64,000 bases of DNA from Gaiellales bacterium (GTDB taxonomy: Bacteria; Actinomycetota; Thermoleophilia; Gaiellales; SKUG01), in NCBI GenBank assembly GCA_038212015.1, contig JBBQUY010000002.1, forward strand, positions 7,313-71,312, written 5' to 3'. The notes under the pieces are model-generated. The model searched no databases. It was not told where the DNA came from and saw only the letters and a list, made by a program, of their open reading frames with translations. A program made the translations under genes and the position numbers. Of this stretch, positions 22,693-57,648 are shown in pieces (the first letter of the stretch is position 1; each line of letters opens with the position of its first letter).

Positions 22693-22722
22693 GTGTCATC
22701 TCCAGTAAGATGGTCACCACCG

Positions 22723-22793
22723 GCGGGTATGGTGAAGTGGTATCACGAGAGCTTCCCAAGCTCTAATTGCGGGTTCGATTCCCGCTACCCGCT
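22723..22793 (+). tRNA. tRNA-Gly (anticodon CCC)
   Basis: Cloverleaf folded by hand. Acceptor stem GCGGGTA/TACCCGC. D-stem GTGA/TCAC. Anticodon stem AGAGC/GCTCT with loop TTCCCAA. 4-nt variable loop. T-arm GCGGG-TTCGATT-CCCGC. CCA is not encoded. Confidence 0.85.
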
Positions 22794-22908
22794 CCTCAGA
22801 CGCTGCGGCAGCACATGCGATCTGGTGGTTGCCTCCCTGGGGAGCTGGATCAGGGGGAACCCCCAGCCCGGTTCAAGGGATGAGTCGATGTGCCGATCAT
22901 GAAAACGC

Positions 22909-24189
22909 ATGCTCATGAGGACTACCTGGACACTTCGCGGGCGACGTGGCACCGCAATCCTGCTGGGGATGTTTGCAGCGGCCAGCGTCGCGGCCCAGCC
23001 CGGCACCGCAGCGACCTCATCCACCGTCGTCGGGGCCGAGGTGCTGAGCGCGACCTCGATCGACACCACCGCGTGCGCTACGGGAGAGCTGGGACGAACC
23101 GATCTCGGCATGGTGCCTCCAGGATCGATGGTCCTGACGTCACTCGACTGTGGGGTGGATTTCGGCTCCAGCAATGACACCAGCATGCTGCTGCTTCAGC
23201 AGCGTGACGGGGGTGGCGCCGCAATGCTCGGTGGTACGTCGTCGAACGTGGTTGGGTGGTGGAGCATGGAGGGCTCGGGGGCCGATCAGTCGACCAACGG
23301 CAATACGCTCGCCACTCGCAATGGCGCCGGGTACGGGGCGGGCCCAGGATCCTTCGGACAGGCACTGACGGTCTCCGAGGCGACCACGCAGCACGGCGAA
23401 GCCACATGGATCGCACCATACGATCTCTCGCCGCCGTTCACGGTCGAGGGCTGGTTCCGTACCGGCGCAGGGTTTCCCGGCAGCCAGAATTCGCCGACGA
23501 TGATCTCCAAGGGCGCTGGTTCAACGAATCGCAACTTCGCGGTCTACGTCAGCTCGGGAGGGATTCTTCGGGCTTCGTTGAGCGCCGGCGGCGTCTTCCA
23601 GGCGGTTGGAGGACAGCCAGTCGCAGACGGGCTCTGGCACCACTTCGCGATGGTGGTGCGTGGTACGGATCCGACCGCGACGCTCGCCGTTTACCTGGAT
23701 GGACAGCTGGACGCAGAGCTCGCGTTGACCGCGCCGGTCGATGCTTCACAGGTCGCGTCCATCCTCGTCGGCAGGGGGGGCGGACTGACCAATTTTCACG
23801 GCGAGCTGGACGAGGTCCGCATCTACGCCTCGGCGCTGCCCGCAGGTCAGGTCGCGACGCACGCAACAGGTACGGTGCCCGATTATGGGGGGCCGGTGTC
23901 GTGGGCCTCGGACGCAGCGTTCGGCGCATGCCTGCGATCGACGACAGGTGACGCCGCGGTGGACGGCACTACGTGGCCTGTCGATGGAAACGGTACGTGC
24001 GCCGACGGGGACGCCGATCCATGGCGAGCCATCGCCCCGACGACCGCCGCGGGCGCAAAGCTGGCGTTCACGCCCGTGTCGGGATCGGGTGGCGTACGGC
24101 TCCGCTTCCAGCTCAAGGCGGGAGCCGCACAGGCTCCGGGAGCATATATCGCCCCGCTGACCTTCAGCGTCATTGCGCCGAACACCTGA
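22909..24189 (+). CDS. Secreted LamG-like / concanavalin A-like lectin-glucanase fold protein
   Basis: Signal peptide MLMRTTWTLRGRRGTAILLGMFAAASVAA. The pattern GWFR...VYLDGQL...GELDEVRIY is typical of LamG-type jellyrolls. GC3 is lower than in neighbouring genes. Confidence 0.5.
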   Translation: MLMRTTWTLRGRRGTAILLGMFAAASVAAQPGTAATSSTVVGAEVLSATSIDTTACATGELGRTDLGMVPPGSMVLTSLDCGVDFGSSNDTSMLLLQQRDGGGAAMLGGTSSNVVGWWSMEGSGADQSTNGNTLATRNGAGYGAGPGSFGQALTVSEATTQHGEATWIAPYDLSPPFTVEGWFRTGAGFPGSQNSPTMISKGAGSTNRNFAVYVSSGGILRASLSAGGVFQAVGGQPVADGLWHHFAMVVRGTDPTATLAVYLDGQLDAELALTAPVDASQVASILVGRGGGLTNFHGELDEVRIYASALPAGQVATHATGTVPDYGGPVSWASDAAFGACLRSTTGDAAVDGTTWPVDGNGTCADGDADPWRAIAPTTAAGAKLAFTPVSGSGGVRLRFQLKAGAAQAPGAYIAPLTFSVIAPNT

Positions 24190-24216
24190 GCTTATGTGGA
24201 CCGGGTTGTCTCACGC

Positions 24217-25071
24217 TCAGGCCGCTGCGAGCGGATCATCACGTCGGCGCAGGTCGATCATGCCGTTCACGCCGATCGCCCGAAGCTTCGCGGTCATCGC
24301 GGCCACGTCCGGATCGCCGAGCAGTGGCAGGTTCCACGCATTGACCGCCGCGAAGGAGCGGCGCAGCAATTCGATGTCACCGCGATGCACGAGGCCCGCC
24401 ATGACGGCGACGCCCAGGCGGTCGCCACCGATCGCGCGAGCCGCACGGGCGGCCAGCAGATACCCGGGACCGAGCGGCAACGGCAGGTTGAGCGTGATCC
24501 ACGACGTCGGGAAGCGACCGCGCAGGGCGCGAATCGAGTCGACCGACAGGCCCTTCGAAAACGGCGTGGCCAGACCGACGTTGAACGTCACCGCGCCAGC
24601 GGGGATGCCGAGGCGTTCGAGCGTCTCGGAGACCTGGGCAAGCGCCGCGGGCTCCTTGATGTCAATGCGCAGGTGCTTGCCACCGCGCGCGCCCAGCAGT
24701 GCCCACTGCTCGAACGTCAGGTCGTGCGCGGCATCGTCGTCGTGCTGCATGACGGGGATGCCGTTGCGCACGCGCACGTCGCCTTCGACCGAGTTGTACG
24801 GGCCGGCAAGTGCGTAGCCGAGCTGCGCTCGAGTATTCGCGTAATGCGCATTTCGGATCGTCGATGGATGGTCGCCCGGCGTGAATCGCTGGTCGGCAGG
24901 CGCATTCGCGGCCAGCGTCGCAAGCGTCGCGAGTGCGGGCACGGGATTCGGCAGGGCGGGATGGCGAGGGGGGATCGGCGGCAGCTCCGGACCCGGAACG
25001 TCGAACGATCGTGCCGGCGGCGACGGCAGCGCGTGGGCGCTCACCCGCGTGACGTTCCCGAGTGGGACCAT
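24217..25071 (-). CDS. PLC-like phosphodiesterase fold protein (DUF2181/FAM151-like)
   Basis: AHYANT...L..AL......VEGDV matches the HAVNS...IEADV pattern I recall for DUF2181/GDPD-like proteins. Start uncertain (ATG 25071 chosen). Confidence 0.4.
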   Translation of the reverse strand: MVPLGNVTRVSAHALPSPPARSFDVPGPELPPIPPRHPALPNPVPALATLATLAANAPADQRFTPGDHPSTIRNAHYANTRAQLGYALAGPYNSVEGDVRVRNGIPVMQHDDDAAHDLTFEQWALLGARGGKHLRIDIKEPAALAQVSETLERLGIPAGAVTFNVGLATPFSKGLSVDSIRALRGRFPTSWITLNLPLPLGPGYLLAARAARAIGGDRLGVAVMAGLVHRGDIELLRRSFAAVNAWNLPLLGDPDVAAMTAKLRAIGVNGMIDLRRRDDPLAAA

Positions 25072-25217
25072 CAGATGGCGGGGTGTGGTCGCGGTGAGCT
25101 GCACGAGGCGAAGATCCCGCGACCGGGGAAGACGGAAACCCGGCAGCGGGAACGTCGGCCGCCGCGCAGGACCAGCCGGCCGCTGCCTGCGCACCGAACC
25201 GCGACTAGGATTGCGGC

Positions 25218-26384
25218 ATGCAGCCACGCCCGCTCGAGCTCTCCGCACGCATCGCGCTCCGCGCGACCGTGGTCGCTGCGTCGCTCGCGCTCGCGCTGGT
25301 TCCGCCGGGCGTCGTGTCCGCAGGCGAGGCGGTCCCTGATCCGCACCTGATAGCTGCTCGGGCCGCGTTGGCGGAGCTGTCGCTCGTCGACCGCGCTGCG
25401 CAGGTGCTCATGACCAGCGTGCCGGGATCCACGCTCACCAGCCGGGATCAGGCGCTGCTCCGGCAGCTGCGACCCGGCGGGATCATCCTCTTCGGCGACA
25501 ACTATCGATCACGCACGCAGCTGACCCGTCTCACGCGCGCGATGCAGGTCGCGGCGCGGGCGGGGGATGCTTCCCGCCACCGCGCGCTCGTGTCGATCGA
25601 CCAGGAGGGCGGCGTCGTGCGCCGCATGCGCGATGCGCCGCCCACGCGATCGCATCCCCAGCTCGGCGCGGCCGACGACGTGGACGCGACGCGCGAACAG
25701 GGACGACGCACCGGCGTCGCGCTGCGCGGCGTCGGCGTGCACATGAACCTCGCGCCGGTCGCTGACCTGGACCTGCGCCCGCGCCGCGTCATGCGCGAAC
25801 GCAGCTTCGGCACCTCGCCGGCGCTCGTCGCGCGGCACGTCACGGCATTCGTCGACGGACTGCAGGCCGGCGGAGCCGTCGGCTCGGTCAAGCACTACCC
25901 GGGCTTCGGCGGCGCGAGCGTCAACTCCGACGATGCGCTCGCCACGATCACGCGCACCCGCACGCAGCTCAACGCCGACCTGCGACCGTTTCGTGCCGCG
26001 ATCGACGCCGGCGTGGAATCGGTGATGATCTCCCACGGCGTGTACGTGCGCATCGATCGGCGCCGGCCCGCGTCCACGAGTCCTGCGATGTATCGCCTGC
26101 TCCGACAGGAGCTCGGCTACGACGGGCTCGTGATCACCGACTCGCTGCACGCCGCCGGGTTCGGCGCGGCGACCCATGGCGGCGTCGTGGACGGGTGCGA
26201 ACGCGTGCTCGCCGCCGGCGCCGACATCGCGCTGCTCACCGGATCGGTGCGAGAGGCGCTCGCCTGCCGTGCGCGGCTCGTCGACGCGGTGCGCTCCGGT
26301 CGTCTCCCGCGCGCGCGCTTGGACGAGGCAGCCACGCGTGTGCTGCGTCTCAAGTCGAGCCTCGGACTGCTCGGCAGCTCCTGA
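25218..26384 (+). CDS. Glycoside hydrolase family 3, beta-N-acetylhexosaminidase (NagZ-like), secreted
   Basis: Signal peptide. The GH3 N-terminal domain motifs KHYPGFG and GLVITD are present. 388 aa. Confidence 0.75.
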   Translation: MQPRPLELSARIALRATVVAASLALALVPPGVVSAGEAVPDPHLIAARAALAELSLVDRAAQVLMTSVPGSTLTSRDQALLRQLRPGGIILFGDNYRSRTQLTRLTRAMQVAARAGDASRHRALVSIDQEGGVVRRMRDAPPTRSHPQLGAADDVDATREQGRRTGVALRGVGVHMNLAPVADLDLRPRRVMRERSFGTSPALVARHVTAFVDGLQAGGAVGSVKHYPGFGGASVNSDDALATITRTRTQLNADLRPFRAAIDAGVESVMISHGVYVRIDRRRPASTSPAMYRLLRQELGYDGLVITDSLHAAGFGAATHGGVVDGCERVLAAGADIALLTGSVREALACRARLVDAVRSGRLPRARLDEAATRVLRLKSSLGLLGSS

Positions 26385-27624: not shown

Positions 27625-27980
27625 GTGCGGAGCTCGTCGCCCAGATCACGGTCCTGGTGCTTGCCGCGTTCGTCGGCTTCGAGGTCATCTCGAAGGTTCC
27701 GACGATGCTGCATACGCCGCTGATGTCAGCCACGAACGCGATCCACGGCGTGGTGCTCGTCGGCGCGCTGCTGGTGCTCGCGCACGATCCGACTGACACG
27801 TACGTGCGCATCGTCGGATTCGTGGCGGTCGTGTTCGGCACGATGAACGTCGTCGGCGGCTTCGTCGTGACCGACCGCATGCTCGAGATGTTCAAGCCGC
27901 GGCCGCTCGAGATCAACACCGGCGGGCTCGGCGAGGACGCCGACTCCGACGTCGGCGACACCGACGGAGGTGCGGCATGA
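27621..27980 (+). CDS. pntAB: NAD(P) transhydrogenase subunit alpha part 2 (membrane)
   Basis: GTGA overlap with pntAA. 119 aa with three TM helices. Confidence 0.85.
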   Translation: MSAELVAQITVLVLAAFVGFEVISKVPTMLHTPLMSATNAIHGVVLVGALLVLAHDPTDTYVRIVGFVAVVFGTMNVVGGFVVTDRMLEMFKPRPLEINTGGLGEDADSDVGDTDGGAA

Positions 27981-29383
27981 ACCTGCATGATCCGCAGCTC
28001 ATCGACATGCTCTACCTGCTCGCCGCGGCGCTGTTCATCATCGGGCTGCGCCGGCTCGGATCGCCGCGTACCGCGCGGTCGGGCAACACGGTCGCGGGCG
28101 TGGGCATGGCGATCGGCCTCGGCGCGACGCTGCTCATCGACGGCTTCAGGTTCGACGGCGTCGGATTCGTGCTCATCGTCGTGGGCGTGCTGATCGGCAC
28201 CGTCGCGGGCGTGGTCTCCGCGCGCTCGGTGAAGATGACCGCGATGCCGCAGATGGTGGCGTTCTTCAATGGCCTCGGCGGCGGCTGCGTCGCCCTCATC
28301 TCGATGGCCGAGTACCAGACGTTCCTGGACGGCCATGGCGATCCGTCGACGACGACACTCGTCGGCATCGCGGTGGGATCGCTCATCGGTGCGATCAGCT
28401 TCACGGGCAGCGTGATCGCGTTCGCGAAGCTGCAGGAGCTGCTGAGTGGTCGTCCGATCACGTGGCCGCTGCAGCGCACCGGCAACGCGATCCTGCTCGC
28501 GATCTCGGCGGGCCTCGGTGCGTGGATCGTGGCGGGCGCCGAACGCGGTGAGGTGATGCTCGTGCTCGTGCTGGTGGCGGCGGTGCTCGGCGTGTGCGTC
28601 GTGCTGCCGATCGGCGGCGCGGACATGCCCGTCATCATCTCGCTGCTCAACTCGCTCACCGGCTTGGCGGCATGTGCGGCGGGATTCGCGCTCGGCAACA
28701 CGCTGCTGATCGTGGCCGGCATCATCGTCGGCGCATCCGGCTTCCTGCTCACCAAGATGATGGGCGAGGCGATGAACCGCACGATCGCGAGCGTGCTGTT
28801 CGGTGCGTTCGGCGGCGGCGGTGGCCAGGCTGGGGGCGCGCTCACGCAGGGCACCGTTCGAGCTGCCGGCGCCGAAGACGTCGCGATCATGCTCGCCTAC
28901 TCGCGCCGCGTGGTGATCGTGCCGGGATATGGGCTCGCGGTCGCGCAGGCGCAGCACACGGTGCGCGAGCTGTCGGATCTGCTCGAGTCCAAGGGCGTGC
29001 ACGTCACGTATGGCATCCATCCGGTCGCCGGGCGCATGCCGGGCCACATGAACGTGCTGCTCGCGGAGGCGAACGTGCCGTACGAGCAGCTCAAGGAGAT
29101 GGACGAGGTCAATCCCGAGTTCAAGCAGACCGACGTCGTGCTCGTGATCGGTGCCAACGACGTCGTGAACCCGAGCGCCAAGACCGAGCCCGGCAGCCCG
29201 CTGTTCGGCATGCCCGTGCTCAACGTCGAGGAAGCGAAGGCCGTCGTCGTCATGAAGCGCGGCATGAGCACCGGGTTCGCCGGCGTCGACAACCCGCTCT
29301 TCGTCGCGCCCAACACGCAGATGCTGTTCGGCGACGCGAAGGCGTCGCTGTCGGAGCTGGTGACGGCGGTCGGGGCGGTGTAG
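27977..29383 (+). CDS. pntB: NAD(P) transhydrogenase subunit beta
   Basis: ATGA overlap with pntAB. Multi-TM N-terminus and a C-terminal NADP(H) domain. 468 aa. Confidence 0.9.
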   Translation: MNLHDPQLIDMLYLLAAALFIIGLRRLGSPRTARSGNTVAGVGMAIGLGATLLIDGFRFDGVGFVLIVVGVLIGTVAGVVSARSVKMTAMPQMVAFFNGLGGGCVALISMAEYQTFLDGHGDPSTTTLVGIAVGSLIGAISFTGSVIAFAKLQELLSGRPITWPLQRTGNAILLAISAGLGAWIVAGAERGEVMLVLVLVAAVLGVCVVLPIGGADMPVIISLLNSLTGLAACAAGFALGNTLLIVAGIIVGASGFLLTKMMGEAMNRTIASVLFGAFGGGGGQAGGALTQGTVRAAGAEDVAIMLAYSRRVVIVPGYGLAVAQAQHTVRELSDLLESKGVHVTYGIHPVAGRMPGHMNVLLAEANVPYEQLKEMDEVNPEFKQTDVVLVIGANDVVNPSAKTEPGSPLFGMPVLNVEEAKAVVVMKRGMSTGFAGVDNPLFVAPNTQMLFGDAKASLSELVTAVGAV

Positions 29384-29403
29384 TGCCGCCGCAAGGGGAT
29401 GTC

Positions 29404-29910
29404 ATGTTCAAGGTCAATTGGTCCAATGCGCGTCATCGTGGCGAACCGGCGTTACTCTTTCGCCCCGTTCAGCACGTTCCCGCGAGGGTCTGGTACGACG
29501 TCATCGATGCGGTGTTCGCAACCCGACCTGATGAGCTGCTTGCCGAAGGCGAGGAAGATGACGACGCCCCGGCCGGGGGTGACGTATCGACCTCCAGTAC
29601 CCAAGCATTCTTCATCAGGTTGCGAGCGACCGAGAATCCAGACGATGTCGTTTCGCGGATCGAGTCGAGTCGGCCGGACGTTTCATTCGTATTCACCGAC
29701 GAACGCTGGGGGCCGGAGCCGGACAGCGGTTCGATCTCAGTGAAATGGAGCGTGAGCGATCCGCTGGAACTGGAACAGGAAGTACGGTTCTCCACCGATG
29801 TGGTGAGCGAGCCGAGCATCGACAAGAGCGAGGCCCATGAGATCCTCATGGTGGCCGGACGTCGGATGTGGGGTGACAGGCTGGTCAGGCGGCCGGGGTG
29901 GGTGGACTGA
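29404..29910 (+). CDS. Hypothetical protein with atypical (lower-GC, low-GC3) codon usage; likely horizontally acquired
   Basis: ATG 29404 with AAGGGGA upstream. 168 aa. Many A/T-ending codons in a genome that otherwise strongly prefers G/C-ending codons. Its last 13 nt lie inside the left direct repeat. Confidence 0.5.
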   Translation: MFKVNWSNARHRGEPALLFRPVQHVPARVWYDVIDAVFATRPDELLAEGEEDDDAPAGGDVSTSSTQAFFIRLRATENPDDVVSRIESSRPDVSFVFTDERWGPEPDSGSISVKWSVSDPLELEQEVRFSTDVVSEPSIDKSEAHEILMVAGRRMWGDRLVRRPGWVD

Positions 29911-30010
29911 CCGGCTGGCCCGTGCGGTCGAGTCCTTCGCGGAGTTCACAGATAATCTTCGGCGACGCGAAGGCGTCGCGGATCTTGTGCGCGGCGGCGC
30001 TGCGAGTCGC
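29885..30010 (-). pseudogene. Diverged 3' fragment of a DUF455-like gene (remnant homologous to the C-terminus of the 33049-34254 gene)
   Basis: The minus-strand translation ...KIICELREGLDRTGQPVSPPTPAA* parallels ...KMKELREGLDRTGQPVNPPTPAG* of the intact gene. In both copies the stop lies 11 nt before the 47-bp repeat. Confidence 0.35.
29898..29944. repeat. Left copy of a 47-bp imperfect direct repeat (44/47 identical to 33062-33108)
   Basis: gtgggtggactgaccggctggcccgtgcggtcgagtccttcgcggag versus gtgggtggattgaccggctggcccgtgcgatcgagtccctcgcggag. The repeat contains a palindromic hairpin (ggactgaccg...cggtcgagtcc). Confidence 0.6.
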
Positions 30011-30157
30011 ACGGGCGGCAACGGCAGCGACGACGTTGTGGAGTTCGACGCCGGGACTACCGTAGAAGCTGCTTCCTCTCGGAACCGCCAACAGGCCCAC
30101 GCCGGTCTACCGGCGCGAATGTCGCGCCGGGCGTTGACGGGAAGGAGGTGAGGGCCG

Positions 30158-30232
30158 ATGGATCCGTTTTCGCGGATCTGCGTTCTGCTCGTGCTCGTAG
30201 CATTCGTGCTGCTCGCGGCAGGTAGGGCGTAG
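30158..30232 (+). CDS. 24-codon hydrophobic peptide ORF (MDPFSRICVLLVLVAFVLLAAGRA)
   Basis: AAGGAGGTGA lies 7 nt upstream of the ATG. The ORF sits in a lower-GC intergenic stretch within the putative inserted module. It could be a small membrane peptide, a type I toxin or a leader peptide. Confidence 0.3.
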   Translation: MDPFSRICVLLVLVAFVLLAAGRA

Positions 30233-30405
30233 CTCTGAACCCAGACGGCCTCGAGGGAACTTGGCGGTGAACTCGAGGTCGTCGTATGACTACCGTACCC
30301 CATCGGTCAGACCCGGCAACGCCTTGAGCACGGCGGTCGGGGCCGTCTGAGCCAACGGGTGCCGACGTCGGTACGAAATGGCGCGCGGGGGTAGGAGCGG
30401 TCGGA

Positions 30406-30978
30406 ATGTCCGAAGCGCGTCTCCGTCATCTCATCCAGCCATTTCTGCTGCTGCTCGCGTGCTTCGTCGCGCAGGGCGCGTGGTGGTTGATGACCGTGCT
30501 CGCCGTCGCCGCAACGCTCGCGTTCATCGTCGACGATGCGGCCACGGAATCACGCAGTCTCGTCGACGTGCTGCTGGACGGCTCGTTCGACGTCGGCGGC
30601 GTGTCCGGATCGGTGCTGCAATGGGTGCTCGTGGTCACCGTCGTCGGGGGCCTGCTGCTGCTGGCGGGGACGTTCGTGGTTCCGATCCTGCTGCGGATCT
30701 TCGTACGGGTGATCTGTGGCGCGCGCATCAGCTACGCGTGGGCGCTCATCGCGAACCTCGCGAGCTGGATCCTGCTGATCGCACTGACGGCGCTGCTGTG
30801 GGCGATCCCGGGGACGCAGCCGCTGGCGATCTTCGTGACCTGGATCGGATCGAGCCTCGTCACCGCGATGCTGCTCTATCCGCACATGCGCGTCAGGCAG
30901 CGTGCCGACGTGATCGAGCCGGCCTCGGAGCCGCACCAGCTTTCCACCGACACCGACATCGAACGAAAGGCAACCTGA
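30406..30978 (+). CDS. Polytopic membrane protein (about 4 TM), flotillin-associated
   Basis: AGGAG RBS. 190 aa. The stop lies 1 nt before the flotillin GTG start, so the two are translationally coupled, like NfeD-flotillin pairs. Confidence 0.55.
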   Translation: MSEARLRHLIQPFLLLLACFVAQGAWWLMTVLAVAATLAFIVDDAATESRSLVDVLLDGSFDVGGVSGSVLQWVLVVTVVGGLLLLAGTFVVPILLRIFVRVICGARISYAWALIANLASWILLIALTALLWAIPGTQPLAIFVTWIGSSLVTAMLLYPHMRVRQRADVIEPASEPHQLSTDTDIERKAT

Positions 30979-30979
30979 C

Positions 30980-33022
30980 GTGGTCGTACTCACCTTCATC
31001 GCCGTGGCGATCCTCGCTGCGCTCCTGATCGGCATGGTGACCTGGCGCGCGCTGTATCGCGTTCCCGCAGCCGACGAGGCGCTCGTCATTACCGGAGCAG
31101 GAGCCCATCCGACCAAGGAATTCCGGGCCAAGCTCGAAGCGGAGCGAGCGGCAAAGGCGCAGCTTTCCGACTCGGAGGACCTGATCGCGATCGAAGCTGC
31201 GCGGATCGTGGATCCTGTCGAGCTGGACCCCGAGTTCAAGATCGTCGTCGGCAAGGGAGTCGTGCTGCGCCCCGGGCAGCGGATGGTGCGCATGAGCCTC
31301 GCGTCCGAGAGCGCCGCGATCTCGATCGCCAACGTGCCGACCGTGCAGGGCATGACGATCGGCGTCGATGCGGTCGTCATCTACAAGGTGGGTGACAACC
31401 CGTCGATGATCGCGCGCGCGGCGCGGCGATTCTCGAGCAACAAGGTCTGGACCGAGATGGTCAAGGACGTGCTCGAAGGACACCTTCGCGCGGTAGTCGG
31501 CACGATGTCACTCAAGGACATCTGGCAGAACCGCGAGCAGCTCGCAACGACCGTCTCGCAGGCATGCGGCCACGACCTCTCGCGGCTCGGTCTGCACATC
31601 GACAGCTTCGGCGTGAAGCACATCGACGATTCGTCCGGATACATCGACAACATCGGTGCGGAGGAGAAGGCGACCGCGGAACGTGACGCCAAGATCGCTC
31701 GTGCCAACGCGCTGCGCGAGTCGGCGCAGGCCGAGGCACAGGCGGCGGCGCTCACGTCCGAGGCGCAGGCGGAATCCGAGATTCGCCAGGCCGAGGTGCG
31801 AGCCAACGCCGAGCGTGCGGCTGCGACCGCTGCACAGGCCGGCCCGCTCGCCGAGGCCAAGGCCAGGCAGGCGGTCATCGAGGAGGAGACGCGCAACGCG
31901 GCGCTCGGCGCGCAGCTGAAGGAGCAGGAGCTGCAGGCAACCGTCTACAAGGAAGCCGACGCCCAGAAGTACCGCACCGTCAAGGAAGCGGAGGCTGCGC
32001 GGGAGAGCTCGATCGCGCGCGCCGAAGCCGAAGCTGCGTCGGTGCAGCGTGCGGCTGAAGCCGCAGCCAACGCCACGCGCCTGAGTGCGGAGGCCGAGGC
32101 GCAGGGCATGCGCATGCGCGCCGAGGCCGAACAGGCCCAGGGCGAGGCCCAGGCAGCAGCCGAGAAGGCGAAGGGCCTTGCCGCTGCCGAGGTCGTGCGG
32201 CAGACCGGTCTGTCGGAGGCGGAGGTCGTGCGCCAGCACGGTCTGGCCGAGGCCGACGCGGTCCAGGCCCAGGGTGACGCGCTCGCGTCCAACCAGGAGC
32301 CGATGATCCGCAAGGCGCTCGTCGACAGCCTGCCGATGGTCGTGGCGGCGAACTCCGAGGCCTACAGCCGGGTCGGTTCGCTGACGGTGCTCGACGGCAT
32401 GGACGGCATCGGCGACGGGCTCTCCAAGACGATGGCCGGTGCGATGGCGTTCATCCCGCAGGTGATGAGCGCCGTGCGCGGCGGCGGCGATGACGGAGGC
32501 GCCGACGGCGGCGGCTGGGGCGTGCTGCCTCCGTCACCGGCTCCCGGCGGCGGCGGCCCGGGGGCGGGCTCACCACGGGCTGGTGACTCGTCCGGTCCGG
32601 GCTCCGGAACTGCGCCGGTCACCGCGCCGACGGGGACGGTTCCGCCGCGAGGCGCGACCTCGGATGCGACGTCGACGACGCTGCGTGCGGACGTGCGCTC
32701 GGGCTTCGACGAGGCACTTGCGCGCACGCGCGAAGGAATCGACGATGCAACTGCGAGGTCACAGGCCCAGCGCGATCGCATCGCGGCGGCTCGTCGCGTG
32801 GAGGATCCCGCAGCGCTGGCGCGTCAGGCCGCGGCGACGGGCACGGCCGTGTTCGTAGACGCCGAAAAGCTGGCTGACGAGGCAGTGGATGCCGGTGGCG
32901 AGCTGTTCGACCGCGGCATCGATCTGGTCGACGGCGGACTCGATGCAACGGAAGCCGCGATCGACCGGGCCGAACGCATCGCCGATCGAGTCGGCAACCT
33001 GCGCGGACGATTCAGGAAGTGA
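30980..33022 (+). CDS. Flotillin-family SPFH/band-7 protein with a long Ala/Glu-rich coiled coil and a Gly/Pro-rich C-terminal extension
   Basis: N-terminal TM plus an SPFH domain (VVGKGVVLRPGQ..., VDAVVIYKV). Extended AEAEAQ heptad-like repeats. 680 aa. Confidence 0.8.
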   Translation: MVVLTFIAVAILAALLIGMVTWRALYRVPAADEALVITGAGAHPTKEFRAKLEAERAAKAQLSDSEDLIAIEAARIVDPVELDPEFKIVVGKGVVLRPGQRMVRMSLASESAAISIANVPTVQGMTIGVDAVVIYKVGDNPSMIARAARRFSSNKVWTEMVKDVLEGHLRAVVGTMSLKDIWQNREQLATTVSQACGHDLSRLGLHIDSFGVKHIDDSSGYIDNIGAEEKATAERDAKIARANALRESAQAEAQAAALTSEAQAESEIRQAEVRANAERAAATAAQAGPLAEAKARQAVIEEETRNAALGAQLKEQELQATVYKEADAQKYRTVKEAEAARESSIARAEAEAASVQRAAEAAANATRLSAEAEAQGMRMRAEAEQAQGEAQAAAEKAKGLAAAEVVRQTGLSEAEVVRQHGLAEADAVQAQGDALASNQEPMIRKALVDSLPMVVAANSEAYSRVGSLTVLDGMDGIGDGLSKTMAGAMAFIPQVMSAVRGGGDDGGADGGGWGVLPPSPAPGGGGPGAGSPRAGDSSGPGSGTAPVTAPTGTVPPRGATSDATSTTLRADVRSGFDEALARTREGIDDATARSQAQRDRIAAARRVEDPAALARQAAATGTAVFVDAEKLADEAVDAGGELFDRGIDLVDGGLDATEAAIDRAERIADRVGNLRGRFRK

Positions 33023-33048
33023 CGTCGTTCGTCGGGAGATGCAGGTGA

Positions 33049-34254
33049 TCAGCCCGCTGGTGTGGGTGGATTGACCGGCTGGCCCGTGCGATCGAGTCCC
33101 TCGCGGAGCTCCTTCATCTTCTCGCGGTAGGCAGCGGGATCGCCGCCGAGCAGGTGGGTGCCCCAGCGCACGCCGTTGTGCACGTGCGGCACCTCGTCGG
33201 CGAGCAGGTAGTCGAAGACCTTGGCGACGTTGTGGTGGCCGAGGTCGAGCAGTACCTGGCGGCGATGCGAGTGGCGCCACATGGCTTTCTGCTCGCTCGT
33301 GCCATTGAACAGCAGCAGCCGGCCGACGAGGTCGTAGGCGTAGATCGACTTGAAGTAGTCGAAGCCGATCTCGTAGTCACCCCACGTGCAGCCGAGCTCG
33401 GTCTTCATGAGCACTTCGTGCACGCGGGCGTGGCGCAGCTCGTCCCAGGTCTGGCGAGCCATGTCGACATGGAAGTCCCACGGCATCTCGGGATGCTCGT
33501 GCGAGTTGCGCGCCATCAGTTCGGCGGCGCACAGCTCCGCGTCCATGAGGCCGTGGAAGAAGTGGCGCATCTCCTCGGGCTCGGTCGGCACGTGGTTTTC
33601 GTCGCCGTTGACGTAGAGTTCCTCGCCCAGGAACGGGTCGCCGTCGAGCGTGACGTTCACGAACTCGTCGCGCGCGGGCTCGTCCAGGCGCGGCAGGATC
33701 TGCAGGTCGCGGGTCTCGCGCTTGCGGATCTCGAGCGCGCCGAGGTCCTCGGTGAACGGCTCCTCGGGCGTGATGCTCCAGAACTGGTTGGCGCGCGCGA
33801 CGTGCGCGAGCTGGCGCTTGAGCAGGTGCTCGAGCACGATCTGGGAGACCTCGTCGGTGATCGGATCGACCGCGTCCAGGTGGATCTCGAGCGCCGTGAT
33901 GAGTGCCGGCTTGAGCTGGCCGTAGATCACCTGCGCGAGCTCGGCAGGAGAGGACGCGGTCGCGAGCCGGTCGAGCTGCGCGGCGAGCTCGTCGCTCGGG
34001 GCACCTGGCCAGTCCTCGTTCGCGCGCAATTCGTAGATGCGGCGGCGGACCTTGGTCTGGCCGCGGGCGTCGTCGTGCAGATCCTCGCCGAGCACATACT
34101 TGGCGTGGAACGACGGCTCGAGCGGCAGCCAGCCGTTGCTCCAGTGGATGACCTCGCGCAGCACGTGGAAGTAGTTGCTGAAGCGGGTCGCGTTGTCGTC
34201 GACCGGCAGGCCGAGCTTGAGCGGATTGGGATCGTCGAACGGAATGATCGGCAT
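33049..34254 (-). CDS. Ferritin-like domain protein (DUF455-like)
   Basis: Start ATG 34254 (MPIIPFDDPNPLKLG) chosen. ExxH-type pairs (AELMARNSHEH, WDELRHARVHE) suggest a di-iron ferritin-like fold. Native high-GC3 codon usage. Confidence 0.5.
   Translation of the reverse strand: MPIIPFDDPNPLKLGLPVDDNATRFSNYFHVLREVIHWSNGWLPLEPSFHAKYVLGEDLHDDARGQTKVRRRIYELRANEDWPGAPSDELAAQLDRLATASSPAELAQVIYGQLKPALITALEIHLDAVDPITDEVSQIVLEHLLKRQLAHVARANQFWSITPEEPFTEDLGALEIRKRETRDLQILPRLDEPARDEFVNVTLDGDPFLGEELYVNGDENHVPTEPEEMRHFFHGLMDAELCAAELMARNSHEHPEMPWDFHVDMARQTWDELRHARVHEVLMKTELGCTWGDYEIGFDYFKSIYAYDLVGRLLLFNGTSEQKAMWRHSHRRQVLLDLGHHNVAKVFDYLLADEVPHVHNGVRWGTHLLGGDPAAYREKMKELREGLDRTGQPVNPPTPAG
33062..33108. repeat. 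Right copy of the 47-bp imperfect direct repeat
   Basis: See the left copy. It is preceded by a diverged remnant of the 29404-29910 gene's C-terminus (...PLVWVD* versus ...RPGWVD*). Confidence 0.6.
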
Positions 34255-34528: not shown

Positions 34529-35662
34529 ATGTGCGACGTGCCGGGAACGGTGACGACGATGCCGACGATGCTGAATGCGGGTGTGCCCGTGGCTGCGAGC
34601 GCGCCTGCAGTCGATCCGTTCGCCATCGACACGCCCGACAACCTGTTCGCGCCGTCGGAGTGGACGCTCCCCACCGAGCCGACGCCCGTGGTGCCACGAT
34701 TTCCGATGTTCGCGCAGGACCCGCGAGCGGCCGAGGTGGTGCACGCCGGTGGTGAGTTCGTGCCGCGCGCGCCGATGACGTCGACCGAGCCGATGACGCC
34801 GAGCGCTCCACCTGCACTGGATGCGCCGTCGACGCCGGGCATCAACGAGGTCGGGCCGGAGGTCGGCACGCAGGACGGGCTCATTCCAGCGCCGGGGTCG
34901 AACGGCATCCAGGTCGGCGGACTGAACTTCAATCTGTACGGGGGGCTCATTGCGGCTGGCGGTCTCGCCGGTGGCGCGGTGGCACTGCATTCGATGAAGG
35001 CGGCTGGCGTGAACACCGCCGGCATCGGCAAGGTGCTCGGACCGGCGGTCGTGGCGGGCCTGGTCGGCGCGCGGCTGTACCACGTCGCGACGCAGTGGGA
35101 CTACTACAAGGACCACAAGTCCGAGATCCCCAAGATGTGGGAAGGCGGGATGGCGATCTACGGCGGGCTCATGGCGGGCACCGCCGTCGGCGCGGTCCTC
35201 GCGCGGCGCGCCGGTCTGCCGATCGCCCCGCTGCTGGACGCTGCTGCGATCGGCCTCCCGCTCGCGCAGGCCGTCGGTCGCTGGGGCAACTACGCCAACC
35301 AGGAACTCTTTGGCAAGCCGACCGACAAGCCGTGGGGCCTGCAGGTCGATCCGGAGCATCGCCCCGCGGAATACAAGGACCGCAACAGCTTCCACCCGAC
35401 GTTCCTGTACGAGTCGCTGTGGAACGCAGGACTTGCCGTCGGCACCTTCGCGCTCAGCAAGACATGGAAGGGCCGCCCGCCCGGCATGCTCTTCGCAACG
35501 TATCTCGGCGGGTACGCCGTCGGCCGCTTCATCGTCGAGGGCATCCGCACGGATCCGTCGAAGGAAGCCGGCGGACTGCGCACGAACCAGTGGACGTCGC
35601 TCGGCATGCTCGGCGCAGCCGGTGCTGGCGCGCTGCTGCTCGCGCGCCACGCGCGCGGCTGA
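34529..35662 (+). CDS. lgt: Prolipoprotein diacylglyceryl transferase with an N-terminal Pro/Thr/Ala-rich extension
   Basis: Core motifs GARLYHV, WEGGMAIYGG, GRWGNYANQELFGKPT..PWGL and FHPTFLYESLWN are present. The first TM begins at about residue 125. The in-frame start is ambiguous (ATG 34529, 34775 or 34793). Confidence 0.8.
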   Translation: MCDVPGTVTTMPTMLNAGVPVAASAPAVDPFAIDTPDNLFAPSEWTLPTEPTPVVPRFPMFAQDPRAAEVVHAGGEFVPRAPMTSTEPMTPSAPPALDAPSTPGINEVGPEVGTQDGLIPAPGSNGIQVGGLNFNLYGGLIAAGGLAGGAVALHSMKAAGVNTAGIGKVLGPAVVAGLVGARLYHVATQWDYYKDHKSEIPKMWEGGMAIYGGLMAGTAVGAVLARRAGLPIAPLLDAAAIGLPLAQAVGRWGNYANQELFGKPTDKPWGLQVDPEHRPAEYKDRNSFHPTFLYESLWNAGLAVGTFALSKTWKGRPPGMLFATYLGGYAVGRFIVEGIRTDPSKEAGGLRTNQWTSLGMLGAAGAGALLLARHARG

Positions 35663-57084: not shown

Positions 57085-57648
57085 TCACACCGGCAGCAGC
57101 AGCTCTCGCGTGGTGGCGTCGAGCTCGAGCTCGTGCAGGTCCGGCAGGTTGCGGAAGCGCTGGCGGTAATCGAATCCGTAGCCCACGTAGAACTTGTCCG
57201 GCACAGTGAAGCCGCGGAATCGAACCGCGTCGTCGACGAGGCGGCGATGTGGGCGGTCGAGCAGCGTGCATACCTCGATCGACGCCGGTTCGTGCGTCTC
57301 GAGCCACTTGTTGAGAAAGCGCAGAGTCAGGCCCGTGTCGATGACGTCCTCGACGAGCAGCACGTCGCGCCCCTGCACCGGGATCTGCAGGTCCTTGAGG
57401 ATCTGCGCCTGCACGCCGGTGGTGCCGTCGCCGTAGGCGCTCAGCGCCAGGAAGTCCATCTCGTGCGGGATCGTCATGTGCCGCACGAGATCAGCGGCGA
57501 ACACGGTGGCGCCCTTGAGCACCGTCACGAGGACCGGGATCGAGTCGGCGTAGTACTCGCTGACCTCGCGCCCGAGCGTCTGCACGCGCGCATCGAGCTG
57601 GTCGCGCGTGTAGAGGGTCGCACCAAGGCGTGGGGCATCGCTCGACAT
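57085..57648 (-). CDS. hpt: Hypoxanthine phosphoribosyltransferase
   Basis: PRPP-binding motif VLLVEDVIDTGLTL. 187 aa. Confidence 0.9.
   Translation of the reverse strand: MSSDAPRLGATLYTRDQLDARVQTLGREVSEYYADSIPVLVTVLKGATVFAADLVRHMTIPHEMDFLALSAYGDGTTGVQAQILKDLQIPVQGRDVLLVEDVIDTGLTLRFLNKWLETHEPASIEVCTLLDRPHRRLVDDAVRFRGFTVPDKFYVGYGFDYRQRFRNLPDLHELELDATTRELLLPV

What the first reader, a model, noticed from the sequence alone, without database searches (positions are those of the whole stretch)
29404..33108. 3.7-kb module bracketed by imperfect 47-bp direct repeats derived from a convergent gene junction, consistent with Campbell-type integration
The sequence gtgggtggaYtgaccggctggcccgtgcgRtcgagtccYtcgcggag occurs at 29898-29944 and 33062-33108 with 44/47 identity. 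Each copy spans the stop codons and hairpin of a convergent junction between gene X (29404-29910, ending ...GWVD*) and a DUF455-like gene Y (33049-34254, ending ...PPTPAG*). The left copy has intact X plus a diverged remnant of Y (...PPTPAA*). The right copy has intact Y plus a diverged remnant of X's C-terminus (...VWVD*). Between the two copies lie a lower-GC stretch, a 24-codon peptide ORF, and a membrane-protein/flotillin operon. Gene X has clearly atypical codon usage (low GC3). The X-to-remnant relationship rests on only about 16 weakly similar residues and is tentative; the Y remnant is better supported. This is the footprint a circular element carrying a homologous copy of the X-Y junction would leave after single-crossover integration. 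It points to a mobile flotillin cassette, a kind of cargo not usually thought of as mobile.
Basis: partly seen in the sequence, partly recalled or inferred. Interest (0 to 1): 0.7.

Follow-up and report, generated by a model that had tools for sequence, protein, structure and literature searches.

The report
Insertion scar carrying flotillin gene pair
About 3.7 kb carrying an orphan gene and a membrane-protein/flotillin gene pair sits between two convergent genes that are only 12 bases apart in the closest relative, and it left short duplicated copies of both genes' ends; it is a real insertion scar at a variable spot in the genome, but an ordinary kind of event with no sign of a self-mobile element.

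Summary
The 47-nt repeat is real (44/47). It extends to 63 nt of gene Y's 3' end (55/63) and is far above chance. The closest relative (L004) is collinear for more than 20 kb but has pntB and Y convergent with a 12-nt spacer, so window 29384-33048 is an insertion. X is part of that insertion and is not Y's ancestral neighbour.

The last 66 nt of pntB recur at 29949-29997 plus 30330-30350, split by a 332-nt insert, and they start 1 nt after the left Y copy.

The locus is therefore two tandem junction units: [pntB-3' - X - Y-3'] followed by [pntB-3' - membrane/flotillin pair - Y-3']. This fits a single duplicative exchange between two alleles of one junction. Possible routes are single-crossover integration of a circle, unequal exchange, or homology-facilitated illegitimate recombination.

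No recombinase, att core, or plasmid or phage match was found. The copies differ by about 12%, so the event is old. The flotillin pair lies next to glpD, hpt or Y in relatives, and the GH3/Y junction carries different cargo in each close relative.

Verdict: observation confirmed, interpretation partly supported, modest interest.

The parts
27977..29383 (+). pntB (NAD(P) transhydrogenase beta subunit), intact. In the closest relative it is the ancestral convergent neighbour of Y.
   Evidence: Pfam PNTB E 9.8e-180. In L004 the pntB stop lies 12 nt from the Y stop.
29318..29383 (+). J-left #1: the last 66 nt of functional pntB (QMLFGDAKASLSELVTAVGAV*). It contains a stem GCGACGC-GAAG-GCGTCGC.
   Evidence: Reference copy for the second repeat pair. 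8/66 differences from L004. Stem shown.
29404..29910 (+). Gene X, 168 aa, function unknown. First cargo block. Its last 8 codons and stop codon are encoded by the Y-derived copy.
   Evidence: GC3 0.72 with coding-like periodicity. Only a self-hit in the word-indexed search. One full-length homologue, P0133, at 50% identity in the exhaustive search. Absent from L004 and from all 80 Y loci. No Pfam, PHROG, PADLOC or NCBIfam hit.
29885..29947 (-). J-right #1: orphaned copy of the last 63 nt of Y (20 codons plus stop).
   Evidence: 55/63 identical to 33049-33111; score 86 vs null maximum 27. Translation ELREGLDRTGQPVSPPTPAA*.
29947..29949 (.). Novel head-to-tail joint: end of the Y-3' copy | A | start of the pntB-3' copy. 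No microhomology.
   Evidence: Sequences shown side by side. Homology boundaries.
29949..29997 (+). J-left #2a: orphaned copy of pntB 3' positions 1-52 of 66 (31 nt at 28/31 including an exact 22-mer, then a gapped extension).
   Evidence: 0.02 copies expected by chance; score 48 vs null maximum 26.
29998..30329 (.). E: a 332-nt secondary insert splitting the orphaned pntB 3' end, flanked by a 7-nt overlap (GCGGCGG / ACGGCGG). No relatives found.
   Evidence: The two pntB remnant halves overlap by 7 nt of pntB sequence. No similarity in the window or loci. No Rfam hit.
30158..30232 (+). 24-codon ORF inside E (MDPFSRICVLLVLVAFVLLAAGRA*), hydrophobic, preceded by GGAAGGAGG. Candidate small membrane peptide, unverified.
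   Evidence: Sequence read. No family hit.
30330..30350 (+). J-left #2b: orphaned copy of the last 6 codons and stop of pntB (TAVGAV*, with a TGA stop as in L004).
   Evidence: The degenerate codon pattern occurs only at 29363 and 30330, with 0 expected. 17/21 identical to the functional copy, and every difference is synonymous or stop-to-stop.
30364..30405 (+). Conserved leader of the membrane/flotillin unit (GACGTCGGTACGAAAT...GGTAGGAGCGGTCGGA). Homology with other contigs starts here.
   Evidence: In the glpD-linked copies the motif CGGTAGGAAAC overlaps or abuts the glpD stop.
30406..30978 (+). 190-aa multi-pass membrane protein, always paired with the flotillin. No Pfam family.
   Evidence: Eleven homologues, all immediately upstream of a flotillin wherever context was seen. 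No Pfam hit.
30980..33022 (+). 680-aa flotillin (SPFH/Band 7 domain, Flot region, and a long Ala/Glu-rich and Gly/Pro-rich C-terminal part). Second cargo block.
   Evidence: Pfam Band_7 E 2.7e-22; Flot 5.6e-5, below the curated cut-off. NCBIfam FloT model 6.6e-58, below the equivalog cut-off. Homologues at 69-91% identity.
33023..33048 (.). 26-nt spacer between the flotillin stop and the Y stop. It begins CGTCG, like the 12-nt L004 spacer CGTCGGACGAGC.
   Evidence: The flanking GACGTCG repeat is only weakly above chance.
33049..34254 (-). Gene Y (DUF455-like, 401 aa), intact.
   Evidence: Pfam DUF455 E 1.7e-14. 90% aa identity to L004..

Best explanation
This is an old, recombinase-independent insertion scar at a variable junction of a Thermoleophilia chromosome. 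Originally pntB and Y were convergent with 12 nt between their stop codons, as in the closest relative L004 today. The present locus consists of two tandem 'junction units'. Unit 1 is pntB-3' end, gene X, then a 63-nt Y-3' end fragment. Unit 2 is a 66-nt pntB-3' end fragment (later split by a 332-nt insert), the membrane/flotillin pair, then the Y-3' end. The two units abut head-to-tail at 29947|A|29949. The most economical origin is that two alleles of this one junction existed, one carrying X and one carrying the flotillin pair, and a single duplicative exchange merged them. That exchange could have been single-crossover (Campbell-type) integration of a circularised junction segment through the roughly 63-66 nt of shared gene-end homology. 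Topologically equivalent alternatives are unequal exchange and homology-facilitated illegitimate recombination of a linear fragment anchored in pntB or in Y. The exchange kept both pntB and Y intact and left one orphaned 3' end of each. Shown: the empty site, the two repeat pairs, the head-to-tail joint, the split remnant, and the different contexts of the flotillin pair. Inferred: the existence of an X-only allele, the order of events, and the type of exchange. Functionally, the cargo is an accessory membrane-scaffold operon plus a gene of unknown function, placed co-directionally downstream of the pnt operon and probably read through from it.
For: Empty site: L004 is collinear with window 20.5-43.6 kb, lacks 29380-33048, and has pntB-TGA, 12 nt, then the Y stop. 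Two independent, highly significant repeat pairs: Y 3' end 55/63, pntB 3' end 28/31 plus extension, and a TAVGAV* tail. The orphaned Y end and the orphaned pntB end are separated by a single base, which is the b|a joint expected of a circle closure or duplication join point. The orphaned pntB end lies directly upstream of the flotillin unit, and the orphaned Y end directly downstream of X, so each cargo is bracketed pntB-3'...Y-3'. A flotillin-Y junction also exists in another lineage, L085, with 1 nt between the stops. X is a real gene with a 50%-identical homologue elsewhere. The GH3/Y junction holds different cargo in each close relative: nothing in L001 and L002, GGDEF-HD plus AhpC-like genes in L003, pnt in L004. 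There are 30 neighbour clusters among 74 loci. No recombinase gene was found. The same scar logic, with an intact anchor gene and orphaned 3' ends left by one-sided homologous plus illegitimate exchange, is described for T6SS and rhs loci (PMC5361080).
Against: No genome with an X-only allele (pntB-X-Y) was found, and the context of the one X homologue could not be retrieved. The joint shows no microhomology, only one extra A; illegitimate joins often show microhomology. Identity to L004 shows no step along pntB or Y that would mark donor-derived DNA. The divergences are nearly star-like (D1a-D1b 8, D1b-L004 8, D1a-L004 10 of 63), so an old in-genome duplication cannot be told apart from import from a diverged relative. 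The side upstream of the flotillin unit in L085 is unknown. The routes (circle, unequal exchange, one-sided homologous plus illegitimate exchange) cannot be distinguished from the end product.
Confidence: 0.5

Rival explanations
1. Duplication first. The bare pntB/Y junction (66 + 12 + 63 = 141 bp) was tandemly duplicated by an illegitimate event. X and the flotillin pair were later inserted independently into the 12-nt spacer of copy 1 and copy 2.
For: It gives the same head-to-tail joint and the same bracketing. The spacer region is evidently insertion-prone, because different cargo sits at the Y 3' junction in L003, L004 and the window. The flotillin unit also sits just after a stop codon at the hpt junction in L087. 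GACGTCG flanks the flotillin unit and occurs once in the L004 empty site.
Against: It needs two separate insertions into the same 12-nt target in adjacent copies, plus the duplication. No relative shows the intermediate. The GACGTCG repeat is barely above chance (7 found vs 3.6 expected), and its left copy belongs to the unit's conserved leader.
Confidence: 0.2
2. X-Y is the resident convergent junction. A circular, mobile flotillin cassette carrying a homologous X-Y junction integrated by one crossover within the repeat.
For: The direct repeats bracket the flotillin block. The flotillin pair occurs in several contexts with a shared left end. The X homologue P0133 has a similar ...GW tail, so X may natively overlap a Y-like gene end. 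Route (a) of the best explanation is this geometry, with a resident pntB-X-Y allele.
Against: L004 shows pntB-Y as the ancestral junction of this lineage, without X. The model ignores the pntB-3' remnant inside the 'cassette', which shows that the incoming DNA came from a pntB-flotillin-Y chromosome and not from an autonomous element. There is no recombinase, no episomal copy, and no plasmid or phage match. The flotillin GC3 is host-like.
Confidence: 0.15
3. Templated repair patch. X and the flotillin block arrived as one or two foreign fragments. The 97-nt Y-end plus pntB-end patch between them is filler copied from nearby templates by template switching during break repair.
For: Two short patches copied from sequences 0.6 kb upstream and 3.1 kb downstream sit back-to-back with a 1-nt filler. 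Actinobacteria commonly have end-joining repair (own knowledge).
Against: It does not explain the third remnant (pntB tail 30330-30350), which together with 29949-29997 reconstitutes one complete pntB 3' end lying exactly upstream of the flotillin unit. The copies differ by about 12%, so they need not have been copied in situ.
Confidence: 0.07
4. Site-specific integrative element. The repeats are attL and attR of an element that targets the 3' end of Y (or of pntB) and restores the gene end.
For: Direct repeats lie at a gene 3' end with the gene kept intact, and an exact 22-mer with dyad symmetry lies in the pntB repeat.
Against: No integrase or excisionase lies within about 10 kb on either side. 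The repeats are not identical (44/47; 28/31). No other of 77 Y loci shows a duplicated Y end. No phage or plasmid relatives were found.
Confidence: 0.04
5. Metagenome misassembly. Two strain alleles of the junction were concatenated by the assembler.
For: The window comes from a MAG lineage in which all relatives are MAGs or metagenome contigs, and the structure looks like two alleles in tandem.
Against: The joint has no shared k-mer between the Y-end and pntB-end sequences that could mislead a graph assembler. The repeat copies differ by about 12%, well beyond strain variation. The orphaned pntB end carries its own 332-nt insert.
Confidence: 0.04

Closest known systems
Orphaned 3'-end arrays made by 'C-terminal displacement' / homology-facilitated illegitimate recombination (rhs loci, T6SS effector-immunity arrays; PMC5361080 and the work it cites: de Vries & Wackernagel 2002, Prudhomme et al. 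2002, Jackson et al. 2009)
   Same: An intact conserved anchor gene is followed by new cargo, and the old cargo is pushed downstream still preceded by a short orphaned copy of the anchor gene's 3' end. No recombinase is involved, and the locus is a recurrent site of allele turnover.
   Different: Here both convergent flanking genes leave an orphaned 3' end and the two orphans are fused head-to-tail. The cargo is not toxin/immunity genes. No microhomology is seen at the joint. The process is inferred, not demonstrated, and competence is unknown in this lineage.
Campbell-type single-crossover integration of a circular DNA (for example suicide-plasmid integration or merodiploid formation)
   Same: The product has the homologous segment duplicated as direct repeats around the incoming DNA, and the target gene remains intact. 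The orphan-orphan joint corresponds to the closure point of the circle.
   Different: No replicon or episome was identified. The homology is only about 63-66 nt. The 'circle' would itself have been a piece of a related chromosome (pntB-3' ... cargo ... Y-3').
Tandem-duplication join points formed by illegitimate recombination
   Same: There is a novel b|a joint between sequences that are normally in a...b order, with no or minimal homology at the joint.
   Different: The two units carry different cargo (X vs the flotillin pair), so this is not a simple duplication of one segment.
Genomic islands integrated in gene 3' ends by tyrosine integrases (attL/attR)
   Same: Direct repeats derived from a gene's 3' end flank accessory DNA, an empty site exists in a relative, and the gene is kept intact.
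   Different: There is no integrase, no identical core, no recurrence at other Y loci, and host-like composition of the main cargo.
Bacterial flotillin (FloT/YqiK-type SPFH2) operons with a small membrane partner, reported as laterally transferred together (PMC2636767; PMC13086221)
   Same: A two-gene membrane-partner plus flotillin unit moves as a unit and has a patchy, context-variable distribution.
   Different: The partner here has no detectable NfeD/YuaF similarity by Pfam. The flotillin is unusually long (about 650-680 aa), with a Gly/Pro-rich and coiled C-terminal extension.

Membership tests
Integrase-mediated integrative element (attL/attR at a gene 3' end) | Direct repeats flanking the insert, derived from the target gene end | tested here: met
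   Y 3' end 55/63 at 29885-29947 and 33049-33111.
Integrase-mediated integrative element (attL/attR at a gene 3' end) | Integrase/recombinase gene inside or next to the element | tested here: not met
   Pfam on all sizeable ORFs from 20 to 42 kb found none. PHROG and PADLOC also found none.
Integrase-mediated integrative element (attL/attR at a gene 3' end) | Identical core sequence in both att sites and recurrent use of the same target | tested here: not met
   The copies differ at 3/47 (8/63) positions. No duplicated Y end in 77 other Y loci.
Integrase-mediated integrative element (attL/attR at a gene 3' end) | Empty site in a related genome | tested here: met
   L004: pntB stop, 12 nt, Y stop.
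Homology-facilitated illegitimate recombination / C-terminal displacement scar | Intact anchor gene plus an orphaned copy of its 3' end downstream of the newer cargo | tested here: met
   Orphaned pntB 3' end at 29949-29997 plus 30330-30350, and orphaned Y 3' end at 29885-29947.
Homology-facilitated illegitimate recombination / C-terminal displacement scar | Short (3-10 nt) microhomology at the illegitimate joint | tested here: not met
   The joint GAGTTC|A|CAGATA has no shared bases with the parental flanks.
Homology-facilitated illegitimate recombination / C-terminal displacement scar | Alternative alleles of the same locus present in related genomes | tested here: inconclusive
   The empty allele (L004) and a flotillin-Y junction (L085) were found. 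An X-only allele was not found, and the context of P0133 could not be retrieved.
Simple tandem duplication | Head-to-tail b|a join point | tested here: met
   The Y-3' copy ends at 29947 and the pntB-3' copy starts at 29949.
Simple tandem duplication | The two units have the same content | tested here: not met
   Unit 1 carries X and unit 2 carries E plus the flotillin pair. X shows no similarity to the rest of the insert.
Transposon / IS / MITE | Transposase and/or terminal inverted repeats with a target-site duplication | tested here: not met
   No transposase. No terminal inverted repeats at the ends of X, E or the flotillin unit. Only E has a 7-nt flanking duplication.
Integron gene cassette | attC recombination site at the cassette 3' end and an integron integrase nearby | tested here: not met
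   In L085 the flotillin stop is 1 nt from the Y stop, leaving no room for an attC. No integrase was found. No dedicated attC model was run.
Bacterial flotillin (SPFH/Band 7, FloT/YqiK type) | SPFH/Band 7 domain above the curated threshold | tested here: met
   PF01145, 80.1 bits vs cut-off 23.6.
Bacterial flotillin (SPFH/Band 7, FloT/YqiK type) | Equivalog-level match to FloT; NfeD-type partner in the operon | tested here: not met
   NF058507, 196.9 bits vs cut-off 700. The Flot domain scores 23.7 vs 27. The partner protein has no Pfam hit.

The most novel reading that the evidence does not exclude
The membrane-protein/flotillin pair is a discrete, recombinase-less mobile cassette with a fixed left end (GAC-G-Y-CGGTACGAAAT, cut from the last bases of glpD). 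It moves as a small circle and inserts immediately after stop codons at tight convergent gene junctions (pntB/Y, hpt), duplicating the ends of both flanking genes as it does so. This would be a cargo-only mobility mode not tied to any known recombinase family.
Probability: 0.1. Interest if true: 0.6.

Novelty: new member of a known kind. Interest (0 to 1): 0.3.

Why it matters
It gives a clear, base-resolved example of how accessory genes accumulate between two convergent core genes without any mobile-element machinery. Both flanking genes stayed intact because the exchange duplicated their last ~65 nt, and the orphaned ends record the order of events. It also shows that gene X acquired its last 8 codons and stop from the antisense strand of another gene's tail. 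The membrane/flotillin pair travels as a unit among Thermoleophilia. For annotation, the 71-codon minus-strand ORF at 29885-30100 is a pseudogene fragment and not a gene. None of this changes current understanding of gene transfer. Its value is as a worked example and as a caution against inferring a mobile element from direct repeats alone.

Tried and rejected
1. Exact-sequence look-ups of X and Y found no contig.
2. Structure prediction of X gave pLDDT 36, so no fold search was run.
3. Rfam on 29300-30500 found nothing.
4. The promoter/terminator scan of 29200-33300 was at chance level.
5. PHROG, PADLOC and NCBIfam gave nothing for X, the 24-aa peptide or the membrane protein.
6. Plasmid and phage DNA searches of the whole insert, and a protein search of X against plasmids, found no match.
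7. Two metagenome scans with the flotillin (a single sequence, then a family alignment) found nothing useful.
8. A sliding identity profile against L004, run to find a donor-derived segment in pntB or Y, showed no step.
9. X and E were tested as decayed copies of other DNA in the window or in 93 loci, with no result.
10. tblastx of the scar region gave only compositional noise.
11. The search for an L085-lineage contig covering the upstream side of the flotillin unit failed, because no membrane-protein homologue matched.
12. The idea of a 7-9 nt target duplication (GACGTCG) around the flotillin unit was considered and downgraded. It is 7 found vs 3.6 expected in the window, and the left copy is part of the unit's conserved leader.
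13. The idea that L081 shares the window's neighbourhood through its Menorin-like gene is unresolved, at only 35% identity.
14. A three-unit array reading (with E as a third cargo) was rejected. The two pntB remnant pieces are complementary halves with a 7-nt overlap, so they form one interrupted copy.
Full report
**Observation**

- The reported repeat is real. GTGGGTGGAYTGACCGGCTGGCCCGTGCGRTCGAGTCCYTCGCGGAG occurs only at 29898-29944 and 33062-33108, with 0 copies expected in composition-preserving shuffles.
- It extends without gaps to 66 nt at 86% identity.
- The part homologous to gene Y is 63 nt (29885-29947 vs 33049-33111, 55/63). Its local-alignment score is 86 against a null maximum of 27.
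- On the minus strand, Y ends ELREGLDRTGQPVNPPTPAG* and the left copy reads ELREGLDRTGQPVSPPTPAA*. Upstream of these 20 codons the two sequences are unrelated.
pntB lies upstream and lgt downstream.
- X has GC 0.61 and GC3 0.72, against GC3 0.86-0.92 for the flanking genes. The membrane and flotillin genes have GC3 0.87 and 0.83, close to host values.
- The 'X remnant' in the right copy is only the antisense reading of Y's tail, inside an ORF that overlaps the flotillin gene.

- The 3' end of pntB (29318-29348, QMLFGDAKAS) recurs at 29949-29979. It is 28/31 identical, includes an exact 22-mer, and 0.02 copies are expected by chance. It starts one base after the left Y copy ends.
- A shuffle-controlled alignment scan extends this copy to 29997.
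- The scan also finds the last six codons and stop of pntB at 30330-30350 (ACGGCGGTCGGGGCCGTCTGA, TAVGAV*). That degenerate codon pattern occurs only twice in the window, with 0 expected. All four differences from the functional copy are synonymous or stop-to-stop, and the stop is TGA as in the relative L004.
- The two pieces cover pntB 3' positions 1-52 and 46-66. They are therefore one orphaned 66-nt pntB end, interrupted by a 332-nt insert (E, 29998-30329) that is flanked by a 7-nt overlap.
- E carries the 24-codon hydrophobic ORF (30158-30232) behind GGAAGGAGG. It has no relatives in anything I could search.

**Comparative evidence**

- A scan with Y returned 80 loci, all from Thermoleophilia or Solirubrobacterales MAGs.
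- The closest, L004 (Y 90%, guaA 96%, pntB 89% aa identity), is collinear with window 20.5-43.6 kb except at this site. It lacks 29380-33048 and reads pntB-TGA, CGTCGGACGAGC, then the Y stop.
- So 3.67 kb (X, the two orphaned ends, E, and the membrane/flotillin pair) is inserted relative to a pntB-Y junction. X is part of the insert.
- The junction downstream of Y is variable among close relatives. GH3 and Y are about 5 nt apart in L001 and about 60 nt apart in L002. L003 carries about 1.9 kb with GGDEF-HD and AhpC-like genes. L004 carries the pnt operon.
- Across 74 loci, Y's downstream neighbour falls into 30 clusters.
- No other Y locus has a duplicated Y end.

**The cargo**

- X found only itself in the word-indexed search. 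The exhaustive search found one full-length homologue, P0133 (167 aa, 50% identity), from a 1.4-kb Logan contig. X is therefore a real gene of unknown function.
- X's last 8 codons and stop are encoded by the orphaned Y end. P0133's tail (...ERPREGWQ*) resembles X's (...RRPGWVD*) only loosely.
- The membrane/flotillin pair is a conserved two-gene unit. Nucleotide homology to other contigs starts at about 30362-30369, 40 nt before the membrane gene, and ends at the flotillin stop.
- The unit follows glpD in three lineages (L086, L088, L091-93). There the leader motif CGGTAGGAAAC overlaps or abuts the glpD stop.
- In L087 the unit follows hpt. That hpt fragment is 97% identical to the hpt at window 57085-57648, where the window has a convergent gene 13 nt away instead.
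- In L081 the unit follows a Menorin-like gene.
- In L085 it has the same flotillin-Y junction as the window, with 1 nt between the stops, at about 84% nt identity.
- The non-glpD copies share the left end GAC(C)G(T/C)CGGTACGAAAT.
- No integrase or transposase lies between 20 and 42 kb. The insert has no plasmid or phage match.

**Architecture and mechanism**

- Reading left to right: pntB with its own 3' end; X; orphaned Y end; one base; orphaned pntB end (split by E); 13 nt; the flotillin unit; 26 nt; Y.
- Each cargo is thus bracketed by a pntB end on the left and a Y end on the right, and the two units abut head-to-tail. That b|a joint is what a circle closure or a duplication join point looks like.
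- Because the units carry different cargo, the simplest reading is that an X-bearing allele and a flotillin-bearing allele of the same junction were merged by one duplicative exchange.
- The possible routes are:
  - integration of a circularised [pntB-3' ... cargo ... Y-3'] segment by a crossover in the roughly 65-nt gene-end homology;
  - unequal exchange between the two alleles;
  - one-sided homologous plus illegitimate recombination of a linear fragment.
- All three give the identical product, so I cannot separate them.
- The last route is the mechanism proposed for orphaned 3' ends at T6SS and rhs loci (PMC5361080).

**Age and direction**

- The functional and orphaned copies differ by 8/63 (Y end), 3/31 and 4/21 (pntB end). 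That is about the same as the functional copies differ from L004 (8/63, 8/66).
- The flotillin-Y junction is shared with L085. The event is therefore old.
- Identity to L004 shows no step along pntB or Y, so I cannot say which side was imported.

**Rivals**

- Duplication of the bare 141-bp junction followed by two insertions is possible but needs more coincidences.
- A templated repair patch does not explain the third remnant at 30330-30350.
- A site-specific element lacks an integrase, an identical core and any recurrence at other Y loci.
- Misassembly is unlikely, because the joint has no shared k-mer and the copies differ by about 12%.

**Novelty**

- Lateral transfer of SPFH/flotillin operons together with their membrane partners has been argued before (PMC2636767, PMC13086221).
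- Orphaned-end scars are also known.
- The unusual detail here is that both convergent genes left an orphaned end and the two are fused.
- I rate this a new member of a known kind, with modest interest.

Noticed in passing
window 57085-57648 (-) and L087:1-346: The window's hpt gene is followed 13 nt later by a convergent gene. In the close relative L087 (Hpt fragment 97% identical) the membrane/flotillin unit follows hpt directly. A single inversion with breakpoints at the unit's left end and at the hpt stop could also relate the two arrangements.
   Followed up: partly
window 29998-30329, ORF 30158-30232: A 332-nt insert with no detectable relatives carries a 24-codon, strongly hydrophobic ORF (MDPFSRICVLLVLVAFVLLAAGRA*) behind a strong Shine-Dalgarno sequence (GGAAGGAGG). 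It could be a small membrane peptide or a type I toxin-like gene. It is flanked by a 7-nt duplication of pntB sequence.
   Followed up: partly
window 22693-24227 (ORF 22909-24189): A 426-aa secreted Laminin_G_3/concanavalin-like protein lies in a block that does not align with L004. L004 has about 2 kb of different DNA there and no homologue by tblastn. This is a second variable spot in an otherwise collinear region.
   Followed up: partly
L003:7240-9200; L001:4797-4802; L002:11185-11252: The GH3/Y junction holds different cargo in each close relative: nothing in L001 and L002, and a GGDEF-HD-GYP protein plus an AhpC/TSA-like protein in L003. The whole pnt operon is itself absent from L001-L003.
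   Followed up: yes
window 29327-29348 and 29958-29979: An exact 22-mer, TTCGGCGACGCGAAGGCGTCGC, contains a perfect 7-bp stem with a GAAG loop inside the pntB coding sequence. It is conserved in L004 apart from one base and is the most stable local structure in the scar.
   Followed up: partly
window 24217-25248 (-) and L081:8452-9294 (-): Menorin-family genes lie upstream of the flotillin unit in L081 (directly) and in the window (5 kb away). They are only 35% identical, so a shared ancestral neighbourhood is possible but unproven.
   Followed up: partly
window 29885-30100 (-) and 29737-30303 (-): Minus-strand ORFs of 71 and 188 codons cover the scar. The 71-codon one is in frame with the orphaned Y tail and would be miscalled as a gene. 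Only its last 20 codons are Y-derived.
   Followed up: yes
window 30980-33022: The flotillin and its closest relatives are unusually long (about 650-680 aa, against about 450-500 aa for most hits). They have a Gly/Pro-rich linker and an extra C-terminal helical region that is conserved only within this small family.
   Followed up: no
window 34529-35662 (+): The lgt ORF as listed has an N-terminal extension of about 125 aa that is rich in Pro, Ala and Thr, ahead of the LGT domain (Pfam match starts at residue 127). Either the true start is later or this is a lineage-specific extension.
   Followed up: no
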